Shown: piece by piece, positions 32,587 through 39,170 of the stretch | How positions within the stretch are numbered: the first letter of the stretch is position 1 | Layout of the letters: each line of letters opens with the position of its first letter | Source of the DNA: a virus | DNA length: 45,479 nt | Virus record (IMG/VR): IMGVR_UViG_3300045747_000435 | Location: 1 to 45,479 of that record | Strand: one strand, 5' to 3' | The notes under the pieces: model-generated | What the model saw: only the letters and a program-made list of their open reading frames with translations | Databases searched by the model: none | Told to the model about the DNA's origin: nothing | Position numbers and translations under genes: made by a program

Positions 32587-33084
32587 ATGGCAAAGCACGC
32601 CAAGAAAAGCCCATCGTCGTATGGCCGCTGGAGCAAGTGCCCCGGCAGCATCCGACTCACTGCGGACATCAAGGATAAAACCTCGCCCGCAGCGGAAGAG
32701 GGAACTGCGGCCCACTGGCTGGCAGAGCAGGCACTGCGCAAGAACTGCGCTTGCAAGGACTTGCTGGGTGCCACTGCCGAAAACGGCATCGTGGTGGACC
32801 AGGACATGGTCTTCTACGTCCAGGGCTACGTTGACTATGTCAACGACCTGGTTGCCAGCACACCTGGTGCGCAACTGCTCATCGAGCAGAAGTTGCCAAT
32901 CGCGCACCTGACGGGTGAAGAGGATGCCACCGGCACCTCCGACGTTGTGGTGCTGGTTGACGATGAAATCATCGTGGTCGATCTCAAGTACGGACGCGGC
33001 GTTGCTGTCACTGCTGAAGGCAACGGCCAATTGCAGATGTACGCGCTGGGCGCAATGAAAGAGTTTGGGGTGCTGTATGACTGA
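32587..33084 (+). CDS. DUF2800 (Cas4-like PD-(D/E)xK exonuclease), N-terminal fragment
   Basis: SPSSYGRWSKCPGS...VVDLKYGRGVAVTAEGNGQLQMYALGA. Stops at TGA 33082-33084, where homologues continue. Confidence 0.75.
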   Translation: MAKHAKKSPSSYGRWSKCPGSIRLTADIKDKTSPAAEEGTAAHWLAEQALRKNCACKDLLGATAENGIVVDQDMVFYVQGYVDYVNDLVASTPGAQLLIEQKLPIAHLTGEEDATGTSDVVVLVDDEIIVVDLKYGRGVAVTAEGNGQLQMYALGAMKEFGVLYD

Positions 33085-33766
33085 ACTCAAACGTGTACGC
33101 ATGGTGATTCACCAACCCCGCCTGGGCATCGTCAGCGAGTGGACTCAGACCGTTGATGCGCTGAACCTCTTCAAAGAGGAAGTCAAGCAGGCGTCCGCCG
33201 CGTGTGACGCGCCCGACGCGCCCCTGGTGCCCGGTAACGACCAGTGCAAGTTCTGCCGTGGCAAGGCTCAGTGCGGTGCCCTGCGCACCGAGGTGCTTGG
33301 CATGTTTGAAGTCATCGAGCCTGCTGACCGCGATGTGGGTCAACTGGCGTTGGCGATGAGCAAGGCCGACATGATCGAGGCGTGGCTCAAGGCGATCCGG
33401 GGCCAACTGGAAAGCATGCTTTTCCAAGGCCAGAAAGTGCCTGGCTGGAAGATCGTCCAAGGCAAGCAAGGCAACCGCAAGTGGGTGTCCGATGCCCAGG
33501 CCGAAGAAGTGCTGAAGGCCATGCGCGTCAAGCATGACCAGATGTACGACTACTCGGTGATTTCCCCGACCACCGCTGAAAAGTTGATGAAGGCCGAAGT
33601 AATTGGACCGCGCCAGTGGCCCAAGTTGCAGTCCCTCATCACCCGCACCGAGGGCAAACCCTCTGTGGCCCCCGAGTCTGACAAGCGTCCTGCCATCTCT
33701 GTTGAGGCAACGGCAGACGCATTCGATGACCTCACTGTTTCCCAACCTGTCCTTACTACGGAGTAA
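33077..33766 (+). CDS. DUF2800 exonuclease, C-terminal fragment (+1 frame)
   Basis: ELKRVRMVIHQPRLG...CKFCRGKAQC continues the family pattern. ATG 33077 overlaps the upstream ORF by 8 nt. Confidence 0.7.
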   Translation: MTELKRVRMVIHQPRLGIVSEWTQTVDALNLFKEEVKQASAACDAPDAPLVPGNDQCKFCRGKAQCGALRTEVLGMFEVIEPADRDVGQLALAMSKADMIEAWLKAIRGQLESMLFQGQKVPGWKIVQGKQGNRKWVSDAQAEEVLKAMRVKHDQMYDYSVISPTTAEKLMKAEVIGPRQWPKLQSLITRTEGKPSVAPESDKRPAISVEATADAFDDLTVSQPVLTTE

Positions 33767-33771
33767 TTCTT

Positions 33772-34326
33772 ATGGACTTCATCCTGAAAAAAGTGCGCCT
33801 GTCGCACCCCACCCTGTTCCACGCCAAGGAATTCAAAGCCGGTGACGGCAAGCCGCGCTGGTCGGCAAGCTTCATCGTCGAACCTGGTAGCGCCAACGAC
33901 AAGATCATCCGCGATGCGATCAGCGCAGAAGCGAAGACCACCTGGGGCGACAAAGCCGCGCAGCAATTGAAGACCATGCAAGGCCAATCCAACAAGATGG
34001 CCTACCTGGATGGTGAAACCAAAGGCAAGCCTGAGTACGAAGGTCGCTGGGTGCTGTCCACGCACCGCGCAGCATCGCAGTCGCGCCCGCTGATCATTGA
34101 CCGCGACAAGTCCCCGCTGACCTCGGACGATGGCAAACCCTACGGTGGTTGCTACGTCAACGCGCAGGTTTCTATCTACTGCCAAGCAGGCGAGAACGCT
34201 GGTGTCCGCGCATCGTTCAGCGTGATCCAGTTCGTTGAAGACGGTGACGCCTTCGGCGCGGCCCCGCCCAGCGCGGACGGCTTCGATGACCTGGGTGCTG
34301 GCGCAGACGCCGCTGCCTTGATGTAA
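33772..34326 (+). CDS. DUF2815-type phage ssDNA-binding protein
   Basis: KKVRLSHPTLFHAKEF....GKPRWSASFIV... with an acidic C-terminal tail. Canonical partner of DUF2800. Confidence 0.7.
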   Translation: MDFILKKVRLSHPTLFHAKEFKAGDGKPRWSASFIVEPGSANDKIIRDAISAEAKTTWGDKAAQQLKTMQGQSNKMAYLDGETKGKPEYEGRWVLSTHRAASQSRPLIIDRDKSPLTSDDGKPYGGCYVNAQVSIYCQAGENAGVRASFSVIQFVEDGDAFGAAPPSADGFDDLGAGADAAALM

Positions 34327-34337
34327 GGGGCGCGGAG

Positions 34338-34661
34338 GTGTTTGTCCCCCATGACGCTGACTGCCCTGTTTGCGGGCGTGTGTTCCTCAAGGATGAGTCC
34401 TGGAAGCGCACATGCCTCAATTGCTGGATCGCGAAGAGAAACGCCGAAGACCCTTCGCGCCAACAACGCTACCACCAACAGCAGCAACAGCAGTCGCGCC
34501 AGCAATGGCAGGCACCCCCGCAGCAACCGCAAGGCAAGTTGGCAATCGACCAGACGATGTTGCGGCGACTGATTCAGTTAACGCACCCCGACAAGCACGG
34601 TGGCAGCGAGGCCGCGACTATCGCAACCCAATTTCTTTTGAAGCTGAAAGGGCAGATGTGA
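34338..34661 (+). CDS. Zn-ribbon / poly-Gln / mini J-domain-like protein
   Basis: CPVC...CLNC, then QQRYHQQQQQQSRQQWQAPPQQPQ, then LIQLTHPDKHGGSEAATIATQFLLKLK (HPD motif). GTG start with an AAGGGG SD. Confidence 0.55.
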   Translation: MFVPHDADCPVCGRVFLKDESWKRTCLNCWIAKRNAEDPSRQQRYHQQQQQQSRQQWQAPPQQPQGKLAIDQTMLRRLIQLTHPDKHGGSEAATIATQFLLKLKGQM

Positions 34662-34675
34662 TTGCCTCGCAGGGC

Positions 34676-35000
34676 ATGGCACAGAAAGGCATGGCAATGC
34701 AAAGCTATTCGGTAAGAGCGAAATCTTTTACCGAACCGTTTTGGTTCAAAAGCACCGCACCGCAAGGCGAGGCAGCGCAAAGCGGCGCATCGCAGGGCAA
34801 AGCTATTCGGTAAGGGTGAAAGCTTTTACCGAACCGTTTTGGTTCAACGGCCCCGCAGGGCATGGCAAAGCAGGGCAGCGCAAAGCAGGGCAAAGCTATT
34901 CGGTAAGGGTGAAAGCTTTTACCGAACCGTTTTGGTTCAAAGGCACGGCATCGCACGGTAGTGCAATGCAAAGCAGCGCAAAGCCTTGCAGTGCAAAGCA
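34676..35000 (+). repeat. Three ~95-bp tandem units with 51-nt conserved hairpin cores (34699-34749, 34797-34847, 34890-34940) plus nine GCAAAGC heptamers; candidate ori/iteron array or structured RNA array
   Basis: Cores B and C are identical; A differs at 3 nt. Hairpins at 34708-34735, 34806-34833 and 34899-34926. Heptamers at 34699, 34777, 34797, 34865, 34880, 34890, 34968, 34978 and 34993. Confidence 0.85.
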
Positions 35001-35080
35001 ACGCGACAAGGGTTCGCTCTTGTCAGGTCGCTTTGACCACCCAGCCGGGAATCTCGGTTGTTTTATTGAAGGAAATTTTT

Positions 35081-35680
35081 ATGTCGATCCAAAAAGCACG
35101 CATCACGATCACCGGGTTGAACTACCTGTTGCAGAACAACCCGCAGACCGTTGATCCGTTCAACAAGTTCAGCAAGGCGATGAAGGCAATCACCAAAAAG
35201 CGCACCGGCAAGACAGAGGACGATCTGATCGAGTTGGGCAACATCGAGACCGAAGCGAAGTTGTACTTCGACACGGACCTGGGTGTGTACGTCCCCACCC
35301 GCTGGTTGACCGAAGCGATCTGCACTGGCGCGTTTGCGGTCATCAAGACCGGCAAGGACAAGATGCGCGGCGGCATCTTTGCGGTGGAGGAAAAAGCGAA
35401 GCTTCGCTACAAGGACATGGACAAGGTGAAGACTCTCACCGACGTTGTTATGAACCCCGTGTTTCGCCACCGCGCCCTGTTGCCCCAAGGCCAGGTTCGC
35501 GTTCCAAAAGACTTCCCGATTTTCAAGAACTGGTCTTTCGCTACTGACATCGAATTTGATGACACGGTGGTGGATTTCCAAAGCCTTAAGCGTGTCGTTG
35601 AGCGCACCGCAACCTATGTCGGCTTCGGTGATTTCCGCCCCACGTTTGGCCGCGCAACCGCAGAGGTCGTGAATGTCTAA
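35081..35680 (+). CDS. Hypothetical protein (199 aa)
   Basis: GAAGGAAA SD. First gene after the repeat array. No motif recognised. Confidence 0.6.
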   Translation: MSIQKARITITGLNYLLQNNPQTVDPFNKFSKAMKAITKKRTGKTEDDLIELGNIETEAKLYFDTDLGVYVPTRWLTEAICTGAFAVIKTGKDKMRGGIFAVEEKAKLRYKDMDKVKTLTDVVMNPVFRHRALLPQGQVRVPKDFPIFKNWSFATDIEFDDTVVDFQSLKRVVERTATYVGFGDFRPTFGRATAEVVNV

Positions 35681-36095
35681 ACGTGACGCAAGCCGCGAAC
35701 TTTATGCGGCCTTGCAAGAGCAGGGTCTGCTGGAATACGGCAGCACCATCGAGACCTGGCAAGTCCACCACTTGCTGGGAATCGAGATGCCTACCGTGGG
35801 GACCAAAGCGGTGTTTGACCGCATAGCGGTCCAGGAACTCGCGGCAGTTGACTATGTGCGCAACATTTTGCTGGGCCAGGGCAAGTACCTGATGGGCACT
35901 TCCACGGGTTACCGGGTGTTGCTGCCCAGCGAAAACAAAGGGCAGATCGATAGTTACATCGAGAGCGCAGACCGCAAGCTGTCCCGCGCCTTGAAGTTGA
36001 GCCGAAACACACCGGCAGACCCCGCGTTTTCCCCCGATCAGGTGGAGGCCCGCATCCACATGAAGCGCAACAAACGAAGAGGTGTTGGCGAATGA
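35673..36095 (+). CDS. Hypothetical protein (140 aa)
   Basis: 8-nt ATGTCTAA overlap with the upstream gene. Basic C-terminus. Confidence 0.55.
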   Translation: MSKRDASRELYAALQEQGLLEYGSTIETWQVHHLLGIEMPTVGTKAVFDRIAVQELAAVDYVRNILLGQGKYLMGTSTGYRVLLPSENKGQIDSYIESADRKLSRALKLSRNTPADPAFSPDQVEARIHMKRNKRRGVGE

Positions 36096-37174
36096 CCCCA
36101 CGCAAACTCTGGATCGACCTGGAAACCTTTTCCAGCGTGGCAATCAAGCACGGTGCCCACCGCTACGCAACGCAGGCCGAAATCATCCTGCTTGCGTGGG
36201 CGTTGGATGACGGTCCTGTGAGCGTGTGGGACTGCACCCTGGACCCGCTCCCGCCCGCTGAGTTGCTACACGCAGAGTTTGATGAAATATGGGCGCACAA
36301 CTCTGGTTTTGACCGCACGGTGCTGCGGGCCTGCAAGCCCCACCTGGTGCCCACCGAACCCAGCCACTGGCGCGACACGATGGTGCAAGCCTATGCCCAC
36401 GGTCTGCCTGGTGCGCTTGGCACGCTGTGCGACATCCTGGGCGTGCCCACCGACAAAGCCAAGGACAAGGAAGGTAAGACACTCATCCGCTTGTTCTGCA
36501 TTCCCCCGGCGAAGAACCTCAAGCGGGGCCGCGCCACCCGTGAGACCCATCCGCAAGAGTGGGCCAAATTCGTGGAGTACGCCGCGCTGGACATCGAGGC
36601 AATGCGTGAGGTGCATCGCCGCCTGCCGCGTTGGAACTACCAGGGTGATGAACTTGCCCTGTGGCACCTGGACCAGCGCATCAACGACCGTGGTGTGATG
36701 ATCGACATGGACCTGGCCCGTGGCGCTATCCGCGCAGTAGAACGCGCCCAGGCAGACCTCAAGGCCCGCACGCAGGAGTTGACCGGAGGCGAGGTGGAGT
36801 CCACCACCAAGCGTGACCAGTTCCTCGCGCACCTGTTGGAGCAGTACGGTGTCGCGCTGCCCGACGTGCAGATCAGCACGCTAGAGCGCAGGCTCAGTGA
36901 CCCCGACCTCGATGCCGGTCTGCGCGAACTGTTGGCGATCCGCTTGCAGGCATCCAGCACCAGCACCGCTAAGTACAACACGCTGATCAACGCCACCAAT
37001 GACGATGACCGCTTGCGTGGCGTCTTGCAGTTCGATGGTGCTGGCCGCACACGCCGCTGGGCGGGACGCCTGTTCCAACCCCAGAACCTTCCACGCCCCA
37101 CGCTGAAAAACGATGACATCGATTTCGGCATCGAGGCAATCAAACTGGGCGCGGCCCACCTGTTCTATGAGTAA
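36092..37174 (+). CDS. Family A DNA polymerase, N-terminal fragment (3'-5' exonuclease and N-terminal polymerase part)
   Basis: Exo I motif WIDLETFS, WAHNSGFDRTVL, YAALDIEAM. Stops at TAA 37172-37174, just before polymerase motif A. Confidence 0.8.
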   Translation: MTPRKLWIDLETFSSVAIKHGAHRYATQAEIILLAWALDDGPVSVWDCTLDPLPPAELLHAEFDEIWAHNSGFDRTVLRACKPHLVPTEPSHWRDTMVQAYAHGLPGALGTLCDILGVPTDKAKDKEGKTLIRLFCIPPAKNLKRGRATRETHPQEWAKFVEYAALDIEAMREVHRRLPRWNYQGDELALWHLDQRINDRGVMIDMDLARGAIRAVERAQADLKARTQELTGGEVESTTKRDQFLAHLLEQYGVALPDVQISTLERRLSDPDLDAGLRELLAIRLQASSTSTAKYNTLINATNDDDRLRGVLQFDGAGRTRRWAGRLFQPQNLPRPTLKNDDIDFGIEAIKLGAAHLFYE

Positions 37175-38159
37175 CGTAATGGCCCTGGCCGCAAGCGCAC
37201 TGCGCGGCACCATCATCGCGCCAGCGGGCAAGAAACTGGTGGTGGCTGACTTGTCCAACATCGAAGGCCGCGACCAAGCGTGGCTGGCCGGTGAAGAGTG
37301 GAAGCTGAAAGCATTCCGCGACTTCGACAACGGCACCGGGCATGACCTTTACAAACTCGCATACAGCAAGTCGTTTGGTGCGGCCCCAGAGAAGGTGACC
37401 AAAGACCAACGCCAGGTCGGCAAGGTGCAGGAATTGGCCTTGGGATACGAAGGTGGCGTGGGCGCGTTTGTGACCTTCGCAGCGGCCTACAACATCGACC
37501 TGGAAGCACTGGCCCCCACGGTGCTATCCCTGGCCCCACAGCACCTGGTCGAGAAGTCTGAACAGTTCTATGCCTGGACCATCAAAGACAAGCGCAACAC
37601 GTTTGACCTGTCCCGCGATGCGTTCCTGGCCTGCGAGACATTGAAGCGCGGCTGGCGCGAAGCACATGCCGCAATCGCGGCCCTATGGCCTGCCCTCAAA
37701 GAGGCAGTGACGATGGCAGTTGAGCGGCCCGGCAACACCATCGCCTGTGGCCGATTCAAGTGCCGCCGCGATGGCAACTGGTTGCGCGTGGGCCTGCCCA
37801 GCGGCAACGTGCTTTGCTACCCCGCGCCTGAGATCGATGAGGAGGGTGCGTTCACCTACATGGGCATGAACCAGTACACCCGCCGCTGGTCCCGTTTGAA
37901 GAGTTATGGCGGCAAGATTTTCGAGAACGCATGCCAATCAGTCGCACGCGATGTGATGGCCCACAACATGCCATTGATCGAAACCGCAGGCTACGAAATC
38001 GTGCTGACTGTTCACGATGAAGTGATCTGCGAAGCACCCGACTCCGATGAATTTAACGAAGAGCAACTTTCCCAGTTGCTTGCAAACAACCCCCCGTGGG
38101 CACCAGACATGCCTCTGGCCGCTGCGGGTTTCCAAACCTACCGCTACCGAAAGGACTGA
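37167..38159 (+). CDS. Family A DNA polymerase, C-terminal fragment (+1 frame; motifs A, B, C)
   Basis: VVADLSNIEGR (motif A), RQVGKVQELALGYEGG (motif B), VLTVHDEVICE (motif C). ATG 37167 overlaps the upstream ORF by 8 nt. Confidence 0.8.
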   Translation: MSNVMALAASALRGTIIAPAGKKLVVADLSNIEGRDQAWLAGEEWKLKAFRDFDNGTGHDLYKLAYSKSFGAAPEKVTKDQRQVGKVQELALGYEGGVGAFVTFAAAYNIDLEALAPTVLSLAPQHLVEKSEQFYAWTIKDKRNTFDLSRDAFLACETLKRGWREAHAAIAALWPALKEAVTMAVERPGNTIACGRFKCRRDGNWLRVGLPSGNVLCYPAPEIDEEGAFTYMGMNQYTRRWSRLKSYGGKIFENACQSVARDVMAHNMPLIETAGYEIVLTVHDEVICEAPDSDEFNEEQLSQLLANNPPWAPDMPLAAAGFQTYRYRKD

Positions 38160-38237
38160 TCGTGCGTTTCCTGTTTAAATTTTTCTACTTCCGCCGCAAA
38201 GGGTTCACCCTGCGCAATGCATGGAGGTACGCCCGAA

Positions 38238-39170
38238 ATGCGTGACATCGTCCACCTAGTTTCTTGTAGTGGCGGCAAAGACTCCACTGCGACCTTGATC
38301 CTTGCGCTCAAGCAGTTTCCACACAACACGATGGCCGTGTTCGCTGACACCGGCAATGAGCATGAAGAGGTGTACACCTACCTGGACTATCTGGAGCGCA
38401 CTCTGGGCATCAAGATCGTTCGCCTGAAAGCCAACTTCGATGCTTGGTGGTATCGCAAGGCGGAATACATCCGTAATAAGTGGCCCGAAAAAGGCGTGCC
38501 TGCGGACGCGGTTGAACGCGCACTCGCGGTGTTCGACAAAGGCCCAACGGACAACCCGTACCTGAACCTGTGCGTCATTAAGGGCCGCTTCCCTTCGCGC
38601 ATGGCGCAGTTTTGCACGCAGTACCTTAAGACCCAGCCATTGACGCAATTCGCTTTGGAAATCTCCGACTTGCTGGACTGCGACATCTGGTCCTGGCAAG
38701 GTGTTCGCCGTGATGAATCCACCCGCCGCTCCAAGGCCGAGGGTTTTGATGATCTGACCGGCGGCATCTACGGTTTCCGCCCCATCGCCGGGTGGACGGC
38801 CCAAGAGGTGGTGGACTTCTGCTTGCAGCACGGTGTCGAGGTTAACCCGCTCTACAAGCAAGGTATGAACCGCGTGGGCTGCATGCCCTGCATCAACGCA
38901 TCAAAAGCTGAACTGGCAGAGATATCCCGCCGCTTCCCTGAACATATCGAGCGGATCGCTGAATGGGAGCGCATGGTCGCCCAAGGTTCTAAGCGCGGCG
39001 ACTCTTCGTTCTTTCCAGCACCCACGGGCGACAACCGTGGCGAACTGCGCGGCAACAACATCGTGTCCGTAGTCCGCTGGGCGAAGACGTTTCGTGGCGG
39101 CAAGGTTGCGGACCCCCAGTGGGACATGCAAGGCGAAGCCTGCTCCTCTAGCTATGGGTTGTGCGGATGA
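38238..39170 (+). CDS. PAPS reductase-like PP-loop enzyme
   Basis: SCSGGKDS PP-loop. WQGVRRDES. C-terminal Cys cluster. GGAGG SD 10 nt before ATG 38238. Confidence 0.7.
   Translation: MRDIVHLVSCSGGKDSTATLILALKQFPHNTMAVFADTGNEHEEVYTYLDYLERTLGIKIVRLKANFDAWWYRKAEYIRNKWPEKGVPADAVERALAVFDKGPTDNPYLNLCVIKGRFPSRMAQFCTQYLKTQPLTQFALEISDLLDCDIWSWQGVRRDESTRRSKAEGFDDLTGGIYGFRPIAGWTAQEVVDFCLQHGVEVNPLYKQGMNRVGCMPCINASKAELAEISRRFPEHIERIAEWERMVAQGSKRGDSSFFPAPTGDNRGELRGNNIVSVVRWAKTFRGGKVADPQWDMQGEACSSSYGLCG

What the first reader, a model, noticed from the sequence alone, without database searches (positions are those of the whole stretch)
34676..35000. Three ~95-bp units with an invariant 51-nt hairpin core (GAAA tetraloop in two of three) and nine same-strand GCAAAGC heptamers in the replication operon
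Seen directly:
- The 51-nt cores lie at 34699-34749 (A), 34797-34847 (B) and 34890-34940 (C). B and C are identical. A differs at only 3 nt, all at the hairpin apex.
- In units B and C the core folds on the plus-strand sense as UUCGGUAAGGGU-GAAA-GCUUUUACCGAA. That is 12 bp including G-U wobbles, which pair only in plus-sense RNA, capped by a GNRA tetraloop. In unit A the apex changes leave an 11-bp stem with a 6-nt CGAAAU loop (C-U mismatch at the closing pair). All three are followed by CCGUUUUGGUU.
- The unit periods are 98 and 93 bp, which breaks any single reading frame.
- The intervening 42-47 bp are degenerate copies of each other.
- GCAAAGC occurs 9 times on one strand (34699, 34777, 34797, 34865, 34880, 34890, 34968, 34978, 34993), with 10-20 bp spacing inside clusters.
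- This is the only large gap in an otherwise tightly coupled operon. It sits between the SSB plus Zn-ribbon/J-like genes and an unknown 199-aa gene plus PolA.

Hypotheses:
1. An iteron-type origin, by analogy with the P4 ori/crr repeats and lambdoid iterons. A J-domain-like gene next door would fit replisome loading.
2. An array of structured small RNAs or attenuators acting with the downstream 199-aa protein, which has the geometry of a type III toxin-antitoxin locus.

I cannot tell which from sequence alone.
Basis: partly seen in the sequence, partly recalled or inferred. Interest (0 to 1): 0.75.

Follow-up and report, generated by a model that had tools for sequence, protein, structure and literature searches.

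The report
Phage VIPR guide-RNA array (GCA-type)
The repeats are four tandem guide-RNA genes of a phage VIPR system, a CRISPR-like RNA-guided DNA-binding system first described in 2026 preprints, not a replication origin; this copy uses a GCA repeat motif instead of the published GGY motif.

Summary
The gap at 34662-35080 holds four units, not three. Each unit is a run of 9-13 pentamers, GCA plus two variable bases, followed by a conserved two-hairpin tail. The "degenerate spacers" and the GCAAAGC heptamers are by-products of these pentamers.

The downstream 199-aa protein matches the solved SUSP1 Vipr protein (profile E 2.8e-20). Its predicted structure has a Cas7/Csm3-type RAMP fold. The next gene, 140 aa, resembles the accessory gene vap1. 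This matches the VIPR architecture in two 2026 bioRxiv preprints: about 100-nt vrRNAs made of pentamer repeats plus a structured tail. Vipr coats the RNA as a filament, and the variable dinucleotides read double-stranded DNA to silence rival phages.

About 45 related loci carry the same arrays. Tail pairing covaries strongly and needs plus-strand G-U pairs. The array, vipr and the 140-aa gene occur together in unrelated phage backbones. The origin and type III toxin-antitoxin readings are rejected.

The one new point is the motif. This Vipr clade uses GCA/NN, not GGY/NN, and has matching substitutions at the published base-contact residues. No natural target was found.

The parts
34664..34749 (+). 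vrRNA 1: 9 pentamers (34664-34708: GCCTC GCAGG GCATG GCACA GAAAG GCATG GCAAT GCAAA GCTAT) plus a 3' tail. Tail hairpin 1 is 34710-34733 and hairpin 2 is 34734-34746, followed by CAA.
   Evidence: Pentamer phase analysis. Fold at -19.1 kcal/mol, z = -5.1. Tail covariation across 30 homologous tails.
34752..34847 (+). vrRNA 2: 11 pentamers (34752-34806) plus tail. Hairpin 1 is 34808-34831 with a GAAA loop. Hairpin 2 is 34832-34844.
   Evidence: -21.0 kcal/mol, z = -4.3.
34850..34940 (+). vrRNA 3: 10 pentamers (34850-34899) plus a tail identical to that of vrRNA 2. Hairpin 1 is 34901-34924. Hairpin 2 is 34925-34937.
   Evidence: core C is identical to core B.
Hairpin 1 is 35005-35024 (GACAAGGG-UUCG-CUCUUGUC). 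Hairpin 2 is 35026-35038 (GGUC-GCUUU-GACC).
   Evidence: -20.4 kcal/mol, z = -3.8. The same tail type recurs in L003, L004 and L006.
35042..35067 (+). Terminator-like hairpin plus TTTTATT between the array and the vipr ribosome-binding site. Its role is unknown; it may set the ratio of vrRNA to vipr mRNA.
   Evidence: Scan hit with 8 pairs, but the fold is weak (-10.1 kcal/mol, z = -1.9). A stronger equivalent sits at the same place in L004 and L003.
35081..35680 (+). vipr: 199-aa Vipr protein, a minimal RAMP/Cas7-like RNA-binding subunit. Predicted to bind one protomer per pentamer.
   Evidence: PDB 36pp_D 'SUSP1 Vipr protein': E 2.8e-20 with a profile and 2.1e-14 with the single sequence. 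AF2 model (pLDDT 79) matches Csm3/Cas7 chains. phrog_4652, E 1e-50. 830 homologues found.
35673..36095 (+). vap1-like accessory gene, 140 aa. Its start overlaps the vipr stop by 8 nt.
   Evidence: A homologous gene follows vipr in every clade locus where the downstream region was read, with 45% identity in an unrelated phage backbone (L027). Profile-profile match to the genes that follow vipr in SUSP2, LittleE and Medea1: probability 84.7%, E 6.7e-6. Pairwise to SUSP2 gp039: E 3e-4.

Best explanation
The 420-bp gap is the guide-RNA array of a phage-encoded VIPR (Viral Interference Programmable Repeat) system. The full module is four vrRNA genes (34664-35040), then vipr (35081-35680), then a vap1-like gene (35673-36095).

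Each vrRNA of about 86-98 nt has two parts. The first is a guide region of 9-13 pentamers, in which a constant GCA alternates with two free bases. The second is a constant 3' tail of two hairpins, possibly closed into a pseudoknot.

The following mechanism is inferred from the published SUSP1 and P. fulva systems and is not shown here:
- The array is transcribed with the early operon on the plus strand and cut into unit RNAs.
- Vipr protomers polymerise along each RNA, one per pentamer, starting from the tail end.
- The constant trinucleotide is buried in the protein and the variable dinucleotides are displayed.
- The filament reads double-stranded DNA through those dinucleotides, skipping every third target base.
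- It forms an R-loop/triplex that blocks transcription of a competing phage, prophage or satellite.

Shown here:
- homology and fold of the protein;
- pentamer periodicity with hypervariable dinucleotides;
- covarying plus-strand tail structure;
- linkage of array, vipr and the vap-like gene across unrelated phage backbones;
- a clade-wide switch of the constant motif from GGY to GCA, with matching substitutions at the published base-contact residues.
For: Protein.
- The family profile hits PDB 36pp_D 'SUSP1 Vipr protein' over residues 7-197 at E 2.8e-20. The single sequence gives E 2.1e-14.
- The G-loop motif GFGDFRPTFGR aligns with SUSP1 GVGDWRPRFGR.
- The AF2 model's best PDB matches are Csm3/Cas7 RAMP chains, E 2e-4 to 1e-3.

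RNA.
- The window has four plus-strand tracts of 9-13 in-phase pentamers and none elsewhere in 45 kb.
- Over 294 pentamers from 26 tracts in 12 loci, G is 0.97, C 0.91 and A 0.90. Positions 4-5 carry about 0 bits, and all 16 dinucleotides are used.
- Unit length and layout, a repeat tract followed by a structured tail, match the published vrRNAs of about 100 nt with 9-16 repeats (bioRxiv 10.64898/2026.04.26.720920).

Tail structure, from 30 tails in a MAFFT alignment not fitted to any structure.
- 88.9% of cells are paired, against 67.6% in shuffles (0 of 500 reach the observed value).
- 14 of 18 pairs change on both sides.
- Slid controls give 29-49% paired.
- G-U pairs dominate several positions.

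Context.
- The array, vipr and 140-aa gene travel together in different phage backbones.
- A near-consensus sigma-70 promoter sits 15 nt upstream of the first tract in L009.
- The 140-aa family matches the genes that follow vipr in SUSP2, LittleE and Medea1.

Comparison with published-type loci.
- SUSP2 arrays read GGTNN and LittleE arrays read GGCNN with the same detector.
- Of 35 IMG/VR loci with the clade signature N/S/K19, W75, K143, non-Arg145 and F185, 28 had a detectable array. 27 read GCAnn and one (L116) reads GAAnn. Distant loci read GGC/GGT.
- SUSP1 contact residues H17, R138, W178 and M72 (bioRxiv 10.64898/2026.04.26.720927) are N19, F145, F185 and W75 here. D177, R179 and K33 are kept.
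Against: - No expression, processing or binding data exist for this locus.
- The constant motif is GCA, not the defining GGY. The published Arg that contacts G2 is absent, so the binding mode and skip rule are extrapolated.
- No natural target was found.
  - There is no self-target in the window.
  - IMG/VR scans with 8-dinucleotide cores of all four guides gave only chance-level hits that do not extend.
  - One metagenome scan with the full vrRNA 2 code gave three homologous bacterial hits with the wrong codon phase.
  - 99 clade guides against about 1 Mb of held sequence showed no excess at 1-nt skip over skips of 0, 2, 3 or 4.
- The vap1 homology is modest (84.7% probability).
- The pseudoknot is not established.
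Confidence: 0.88

Rival explanations
1. Cis-acting leader. The pentamer tracts and hairpins are binding sites through which Vipr, or another multimeric protein, autoregulates transcription or translation of vipr. This would resemble TRAP on the trp leader, and the RNAs would not be trans-acting guides.
For: The arrays in the window lie directly upstream of vipr, with a terminator-like hairpin between them. Triplets repeated every 5 nt are the TRAP-type binding geometry (own knowledge).
Against: In many clade loci the arrays lie downstream of vipr or vap, or on both sides (L022, L077, L078, L080, L088, L090, L099). Each unit has its own complete tail. The two free bases are hypervariable between units and loci while the rest is conserved, which fits a specificity code rather than an operator. 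The homologous SUSP1 RNAs are experimentally trans-acting guides.
Confidence: 0.05
2. Iteron-type or single-strand replication origin. The repeated GCAAAGC/GCA motifs and hairpins are bound by the phage initiator, primase-helicase or SSB.
For: The array lies in a replication gene cluster between the Gp2.5-like SSB and PolA. It contains many same-strand short repeats.
Against: - The element follows vipr into phages with different replication or recombination modules.
- BPP-1, the closest cultured relative of this module, has neither vipr nor a comparable gap; its SSB-bbp41 gap is 117 bp.
- Pairing relies on plus-strand G-U pairs, and the minus strand folds poorly.
- There is no AT-rich unwinding region; GC is 0.59.
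- A 5-bp period places successive sites on opposite faces of duplex DNA.
Confidence: 0.03
3. Type III toxin-antitoxin locus. Tandem antitoxin RNAs, a terminator, then a toxin endoribonuclease that processes and is inhibited by the repeats.
For: The geometry of repeats, terminator-like hairpin and gene matches ToxIN (own knowledge of ToxIN).
Against: The protein is a RAMP/Vipr homologue. It has no match in PADLOC, Pfam or NCBIfam. The units are about 95 nt with hypervariable content rather than near-identical short repeats (about 36 nt in ToxI, own knowledge). A third conserved gene follows.
Confidence: 0.02

Closest known systems
VIPR systems, type II (Escherichia phage SUSP1 and a Pseudomonas fulva prophage; bioRxiv 10.64898/2026.04.26.720920 and 10.64898/2026.04.26.720927)
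   Same: - Homologous Vipr protein of about 200 aa.
- vrRNA units of about 100 nt, made of 9-16 pentamer repeats with two hypervariable bases, followed by a conserved structured tail.
- Arrays flank vipr on its strand.
- The order vrRNAs-vipr-vap matches that reported for P. fulva.
- Phage-encoded.
- A homologous downstream accessory gene.
   Different: - The constant trinucleotide is GCA, not GGY.
- The base-contact residues differ: H17 to N, R138 to F/A, W178 to F, M72 to W.
- The tail is two simple hairpins of variable sequence; a pseudoknot is only possible.
- Two tail classes coexist in one array.
- Targets and skip rule are unverified.
- Protein identity to SUSP2 Vipr is only 28%.
Class 1 CRISPR Cas7/Csm3-crRNA backbone filaments
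   Same: RAMP fold. One protomer binds per fixed RNA increment. A constant handle sits beside a variable guide.
   Different: There is no CRISPR repeat-spacer array, no other cas genes and no adaptation module. The guide information is non-contiguous (2 of every 5 nt) rather than a continuous spacer.
Type III toxin-antitoxin systems (ToxIN, CptIN, TenpIN)
   Same: Tandem structured RNA units upstream of a protein gene, with an intervening terminator-like hairpin. The RNA and protein form a complex.
   Different: The protein fold and family differ. The units are long and internally variable. No toxin or endoribonuclease signature is present.
TRAP-trp leader RNA (Bacillus)
   Same: A conserved triplet repeated about every 5 nt on single-stranded RNA, read by one protein subunit per repeat.
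   Different: TRAP is a closed 11-mer ring unrelated in fold, acts in cis on one leader, and its spacers carry no information.
Iteron origins (phage P4 ori/crr, lambdoid ori)
   Same: A cluster of same-orientation short repeats in a non-coding gap near replication genes.
   Different: Iterons are duplex sites of about 17-22 bp with roughly helical-turn spacing next to their initiator gene and an AT-rich region. None of that applies here.

Membership tests
VIPR system | An adjacent gene encodes a Vipr protein: a minimal RAMP of about 20 kDa with an RRM core, glycine-rich loop and thumb. | tested here: met
   PDB SUSP1 Vipr at E 2.8e-20 (profile) and 2.1e-14 (single sequence), covering residues 7-197. 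The G-loop GFGDFRPTFGR aligns with GVGDWRPRFGR. The AF2 model matches Csm3/Cas7 chains.
VIPR system | vrRNA made of tandem pentanucleotide repeats (9-16) in which a conserved trinucleotide alternates with a hypervariable NN. | tested here: met
   Four tracts of 9-13 in-phase pentamers. Positions 1-3 carry 1.4-1.7 bits and positions 4-5 carry 0.01-0.10 bits over 294 pentamers. All 16 dinucleotides occur.
VIPR system | The conserved trinucleotide is GGY (YNNGG). The paper also admits NNNGG, YNNNG and NNNNG. | tested here: not met
   The consensus is GCA/NN here and in 27 of the 28 clade loci with a detectable array. Written as CANNG it fits 'YNNNG' only in a shifted register. The string 'GCA' does not occur in the text of the first preprint. 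Its figure S17 could not be seen.
VIPR system | A conserved, structured 3' tail immediately after the repeat tract. | tested here: met
   A two-hairpin tail with strong covariation: 88.9% of cells paired against 67.6% in shuffles, and 14 of 18 pairs with compensatory changes. Folds give z -3.8 to -5.1.
VIPR system | Tail pseudoknot (reported for the SUSP1 clade). | tested here: inconclusive
   The hairpin-2 loop (GYUUU) is complementary to the AAAGC of the last pentamers, and the loop changes to GUUGA where the upstream sequence is GCAAC (L008, L009). Both sides are nearly invariant, and a shuffle test is weak: 4.59 against 4.29, sd 0.12.
VIPR system | An accessory vap gene beside vipr. | tested here: met
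   A 140-aa gene overlaps the vipr stop and a homologue is present in every clade locus where the downstream region was read. hhalign against the genes after vipr in SUSP2, LittleE and Medea1 gives probability 84.7%, E 6.7e-6. Support is modest.
VIPR system | RNAs of about 100 nt are expressed and co-purify with Vipr. | not testable with these tools
   Only indirect support: a sigma-70-like promoter 15 nt upstream of the first tract in L009, and the array shares the strand of the operon.
VIPR system | The NN code matches natural DNA targets under the 1-nt-skip rule. | tested here: inconclusive
   No target was found in the window, in about 1 Mb of held loci, in IMG/VR (four exact-core scans) or in one metagenome scan. 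All hits were at chance level. The exact-match tool is much less sensitive than the published profile search.
Type III toxin-antitoxin | The downstream gene encodes a ToxN/CptN/TenpN-type endoribonuclease toxin. | tested here: not met
   No PADLOC, Pfam or NCBIfam match. The fold is RAMP.
Iteron-type replication origin | Duplex repeats tied to the replicon's initiator and conserved with the replication module. | tested here: not met
   The element co-occurs with vipr in unrelated backbones and is absent from BPP-1. Its structure is strand-specific.
Rfam RNA families | A match to any curated covariance model. | tested here: not met
   No hit at gathering thresholds across the window. Only noise (E above 3) appeared in 34300-35400.

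The most novel reading that the evidence does not exclude
The GCA/NN arrays define a VIPR subtype that may not have been described. In it, the 'constant' trinucleotide and the protein's base-reading residues have co-evolved: H17 to N, R138 to F/A, W178 to F, M72 to W. This would give a naturally orthogonal Vipr-vrRNA pair. Because the thumb arginine is lost, the register or skip rule for reading DNA might differ. L116, which reads GAA/NN with Ile at position 145, hints at further handle variants.
Probability: 0.35. Interest if true: 0.65.

Novelty: new member of a known kind. Interest (0 to 1): 0.5.

Why it matters
VIPR is a very recently reported RNA-guided system for recognising double-stranded DNA, proposed to predate CRISPR. 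Recognising this locus as VIPR removes a false origin or toxin-antitoxin annotation from a BPP-1-like phage. It also shows the module is a mobile inter-phage weapon carried inside early operons.

The added value is a clade, about 45 loci in hand, whose guide scaffold is GCA/NN instead of GGY/NN. It carries matched changes at exactly the residues shown by cryo-EM to read G1, G2 and Y3. That makes the protein-RNA handle code directly testable by residue swaps. It also suggests orthogonal Vipr-vrRNA pairs for multiplexed programmable DNA binding.

Tried and rejected
- Rfam at gathering thresholds over the whole window, and at E up to 10 over 34300-35400: nothing meaningful.
- tRNA/tmRNA scan: none.
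- blastn of the gap against 50,697 phage records: only a 32-nt chance match in Q antiterminator genes.
- Exact hairpin pattern in IMG/VR: no hits. The hairpin sequence is not conserved; only its structure is.
- PADLOC, Pfam and NCBIfam for the three flanking small proteins: no hits.
- Self-targeting by skip rules 0-3 in the window and first loci: background only. The skip-3 hits are the arrays themselves.
- Target hunts, all at chance level:
  - four IMG/VR scans with 8-dinucleotide cores of vrRNA 1-4 gave 12-17 hits each with random flanks;
  - the one 18/18 match (L044) lies in a portal gene of a different, lower-GC-looking phage, with the skip base off the wobble position, and is expected by chance (about 1 in 17 x 1/16);
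  - the metagenome scan with the full vrRNA 2 code gave three homologous bacterial hits with the wrong codon phase and non-matching flank;
  - 99 clade guides against about 1 Mb showed no excess at skip 1.
- Pseudoknot shuffle test: weak.
- A TRAP-like cis leader and primase GCA recognition sites were considered early. Both were dropped once the Vipr homology and the downstream arrays in other loci were seen.

Full report
**1. The observation**

The non-coding gap lies between a 107-aa ORF (34338-34661) and a 199-aa ORF (35081-35680).
- The 51-nt cores lie at 34699, 34797 and 34890. B and C are identical, and A differs at three apex positions.
- As plus-strand RNA the cores fold into the stated 12-bp GAAA-capped hairpin, or 11 bp with a 6-nt loop in A. 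The z-scores are -4.3 and -5.1 against dinucleotide shuffles. The minus strand of B reaches only -12.1 kcal/mol, against -21.0 for the plus strand.
- GCAAAGC occurs nine times, at exactly the listed positions, all on the plus strand.

**2.

- The stretches between the hairpins are not degenerate spacers. They are strict 5-nt-period tracts of GCA plus two free bases.
- All 32 GCA triplets in 34662-35045 are 5 or 10 nt apart within four tracts. No comparable run exists anywhere else in the 45-kb window on either strand, or in shuffles.
- The tracts have 9, 11, 10 and 13 pentamers.
- The fourth tract (34943-35007) is followed by a different tail: GACAAGGG-UUCG-CUCUUGUC, then GGUC-GCUUU-GACC. There are therefore four units.
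- The CCGUUUUGGUU that follows each core is itself a small hairpin.
- GCAAAGC is just GCA-AA-GCA.

**3. Conservation**

- Homologues of the 199-aa protein were found in IMG/VR contigs, a MAG contig, other metagenome contigs and Vibrio phage 1.266.O.
- In the 12 clade loci where the flanks were read by eye, the gene is flanked on its own strand by arrays of the same build. Each unit is a GCA/NN tract followed by two hairpins whose sequences differ but whose pairing is kept.
- In a further set of 35 IMG/VR loci carrying the clade signature, 28 had a detectable array.
- Over 294 pentamers from 26 tracts, G, C and A at positions 1-3 are 97%, 91% and 90% conserved. Positions 4-5 carry essentially no information, and all 16 dinucleotides occur. 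The tract caller requires 2 of 3 matches per pentamer, so the first three values are somewhat inflated.
- An unfitted MAFFT alignment of 30 tails was tested.
  - 88.9% of cells are paired, against 67.6% in shuffles (0 of 500 reach the observed value).
  - 14 of 18 pairs change on both sides.
  - Slid controls give 29-49% paired.
  - Several positions are dominated by G-U pairs.
- The structure is therefore selected on the plus strand as RNA.

**4. The protein**

- Pfam, NCBIfam and PADLOC give nothing. PHROGs gives only phrog_4652, of unknown function.
- A profile of the family hits one solved structure, 36pp_D 'SUSP1 Vipr protein', at E 2.8e-20 over nearly full length. The single sequence gives E 2.1e-14.
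- An AlphaFold model (pLDDT 79) was searched against a PDB library that predates that entry. It finds Csm3/Cas7 RAMP subunits as its best matches.

**5. What is known about this family**

Two bioRxiv preprints from April-June 2026 describe VIPR systems (10.64898/2026.04.26.720920 and 10.64898/2026.04.26.720927).
- The system consists of a Vipr protein of about 20 kDa and vrRNAs of about 100 nt.
- Each vrRNA has 9-16 pentamer repeats, with a conserved GGY alternating with hypervariable NN, and a conserved structured 3' tail.
- One Vipr protomer binds each repeat and buries GGY. The NN pairs read double-stranded DNA, skipping one target base per repeat.
- Binding silences transcription of rival phages, prophages and satellites.
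- The loci are minimal: vipr plus an accessory vap gene, with arrays in the flanking intergenic regions.

The window matches this anatomy point for point, including the order vrRNAs-vipr-vap reported for the P. fulva prophage.
- The 140-aa gene overlapping the vipr stop has a homologue in every clade locus where the downstream region was read.
- Its family aligns with the genes that follow vipr in SUSP2, LittleE and Medea1, at hhalign probability 84.7%, E 6.7e-6.

**6. Why not an origin or a toxin-antitoxin locus**

- The array-vipr-vap module occurs beside SSB/PolA in L026, in a NinB/NinG lambdoid-type phage (L027), after RecT (L028) and in a Vibrio phage. In many loci the arrays lie downstream of vipr.
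- BPP-1, the nearest cultured relative of the surrounding replication genes, lacks the module. The element is therefore linked to vipr, not to replication.
- The strand-specific G-U pairing, the absence of an AT-rich region and the 5-bp period also argue against duplex iterons.
- The type III toxin-antitoxin geometry is superficially similar, including a terminator-like hairpin at 35042-35067 with stronger equivalents in L003 and L004. However, the protein is a RAMP, not an endoribonuclease toxin, and the units are long and internally variable.

**7. What differs from the published systems**

- The constant trinucleotide is GCA, not GGY.
- With the same detector, SUSP2 arrays read GGTNN and mycobacteriophage LittleE arrays read GGCNN. 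Vibrio phage 1.266.O, whose Vipr is 49% identical to ours, reads GCANN.
- Of the 28 signature-bearing IMG/VR loci with a detectable array, 27 read GCAnn and one (L116) reads GAAnn. Distant loci read GGC/GGT.
- The cryo-EM paper names the SUSP1 residues that read each base: G1 by H17 and D177, G2 by R138 and W178, and Y3 by E71, M72, R179 and C173. K33 contacts the target backbone.
- In this clade D177, R179 and K33 are kept. H17 becomes N19, R138 becomes F145 (A, V, M or T in relatives), W178 becomes F185 and M72 becomes W75.
- The clade signature is consistent across representatives of 37-53% identity, with a few exceptions (for example Arg or Lys at position 145 in P0132 and P0130). Most more distant Vipr proteins have H and R at these positions, with W, Y or F at position 185.
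- The positions that changed in the RNA (G2 to C, Y3 to A) correspond to the residues that changed in the protein. This is correlative, and the register assignment is inferred.
- The first preprint mentions 'a related consensus' and the alternatives NNNGG, YNNNG and NNNNG. CANNG fits YNNNG only in a shifted register. 'GCA' does not appear in its text, and I could not see the relevant figure. I therefore cannot say whether this variant is already catalogued.

**8. What remains open**

- I could not find natural targets. Self-scans, cross-scans of 99 clade guides against about 1 Mb, four IMG/VR scans and one metagenome scan gave only chance-level matches. The exact-pattern tool is far less sensitive than the profile search used in the preprint, so this is weak negative evidence.
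- The pseudoknot is plausible but unproven. The hairpin-2 loop GYUUU is complementary to the AAAGC of the last pentamers, and changes to GUUGA where the upstream sequence is GCAAC.
- Expression and processing are inferred only. The window region has no promoter-like site, so the array is probably co-transcribed with the early operon. In L009 a near-consensus promoter lies 15 nt upstream of the first tract.

**9. Verdict**

- The finding is real and biologically important, but it belongs to a kind described in 2026.
- It is a VIPR locus with four vrRNAs, vipr and a vap1-like gene, and a new member of that kind.
- It has a variant repeat motif (GCA/NN) and matched protein substitutions that may or may not already be catalogued.

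Noticed in passing
window 32587-33084 with 33065-33766, and 36092-37174 with 37113-38159: Two replication genes are each split into two overlapping ORFs in different frames. They are the DUF2800/PD-(D/E)XK exonuclease and the family A DNA polymerase. In relative L026 the exonuclease is one 405-aa gene, but the polymerase region is again in several ORFs. Possible causes are frameshifts or assembly errors, decay, or a naturally split polymerase.
   Followed up: partly
window 34338-34661: The 107-aa ORF just upstream of the array has a CxxC...CxxC zinc-ribbon-like N-terminus, a glutamine-rich linker and a C-terminal 'LTHPDKHGGS' J-domain-like HPD motif. It matches no Pfam, PHROG, NCBIfam or PADLOC family. 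No ORF is called between the SSB gene and vipr in L026, so it is probably not part of the VIPR module.
   Followed up: partly
L116:2126-2445: One clade locus has three arrays whose constant trinucleotide is GAA rather than GCA. Its Vipr has Ile at the position equivalent to F145. This may be a further handle variant.
   Followed up: no
L022 (Vibrio phage 1.266.O), L077, L078, L080, L088, L090, L099: In many clade loci the vrRNA arrays lie downstream of vipr/vap or on both sides, with up to 6 tracts. Some tracts are much longer than the published 9-16 repeats, for example 20-27 pentamers in L090 and L108, though these may be adjoining units merged by my detector.
   Followed up: partly
L009 (JBAQEV010000020.1): A contig binned as a 'Candidatus Saccharimonadales' MAG carries the same vrRNA-vipr-vap module at 66% Vipr identity. 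Strong sigma-70-type promoters lie upstream. It looks like a phage or prophage contig and may be mis-binned.
   Followed up: no
window 34699-34749, 34797-34847, 34890-34940 versus 34993-35040: Two different tail classes coexist in one array: GCUAUUCGG...CCGAACCGUUUUGGUUCAA and GCGACAAGG...CUUGUCAGGUCGCUUUGACC. Both recur nearly unchanged in other loci (L003, L004, L006), while other tails vary freely. The reason is unknown.
   Followed up: partly
window 38217-39170: A PAPS-reductase-like gene (PF01507, phrog_424) sits directly after the DNA polymerase in the replication cluster.
   Followed up: no
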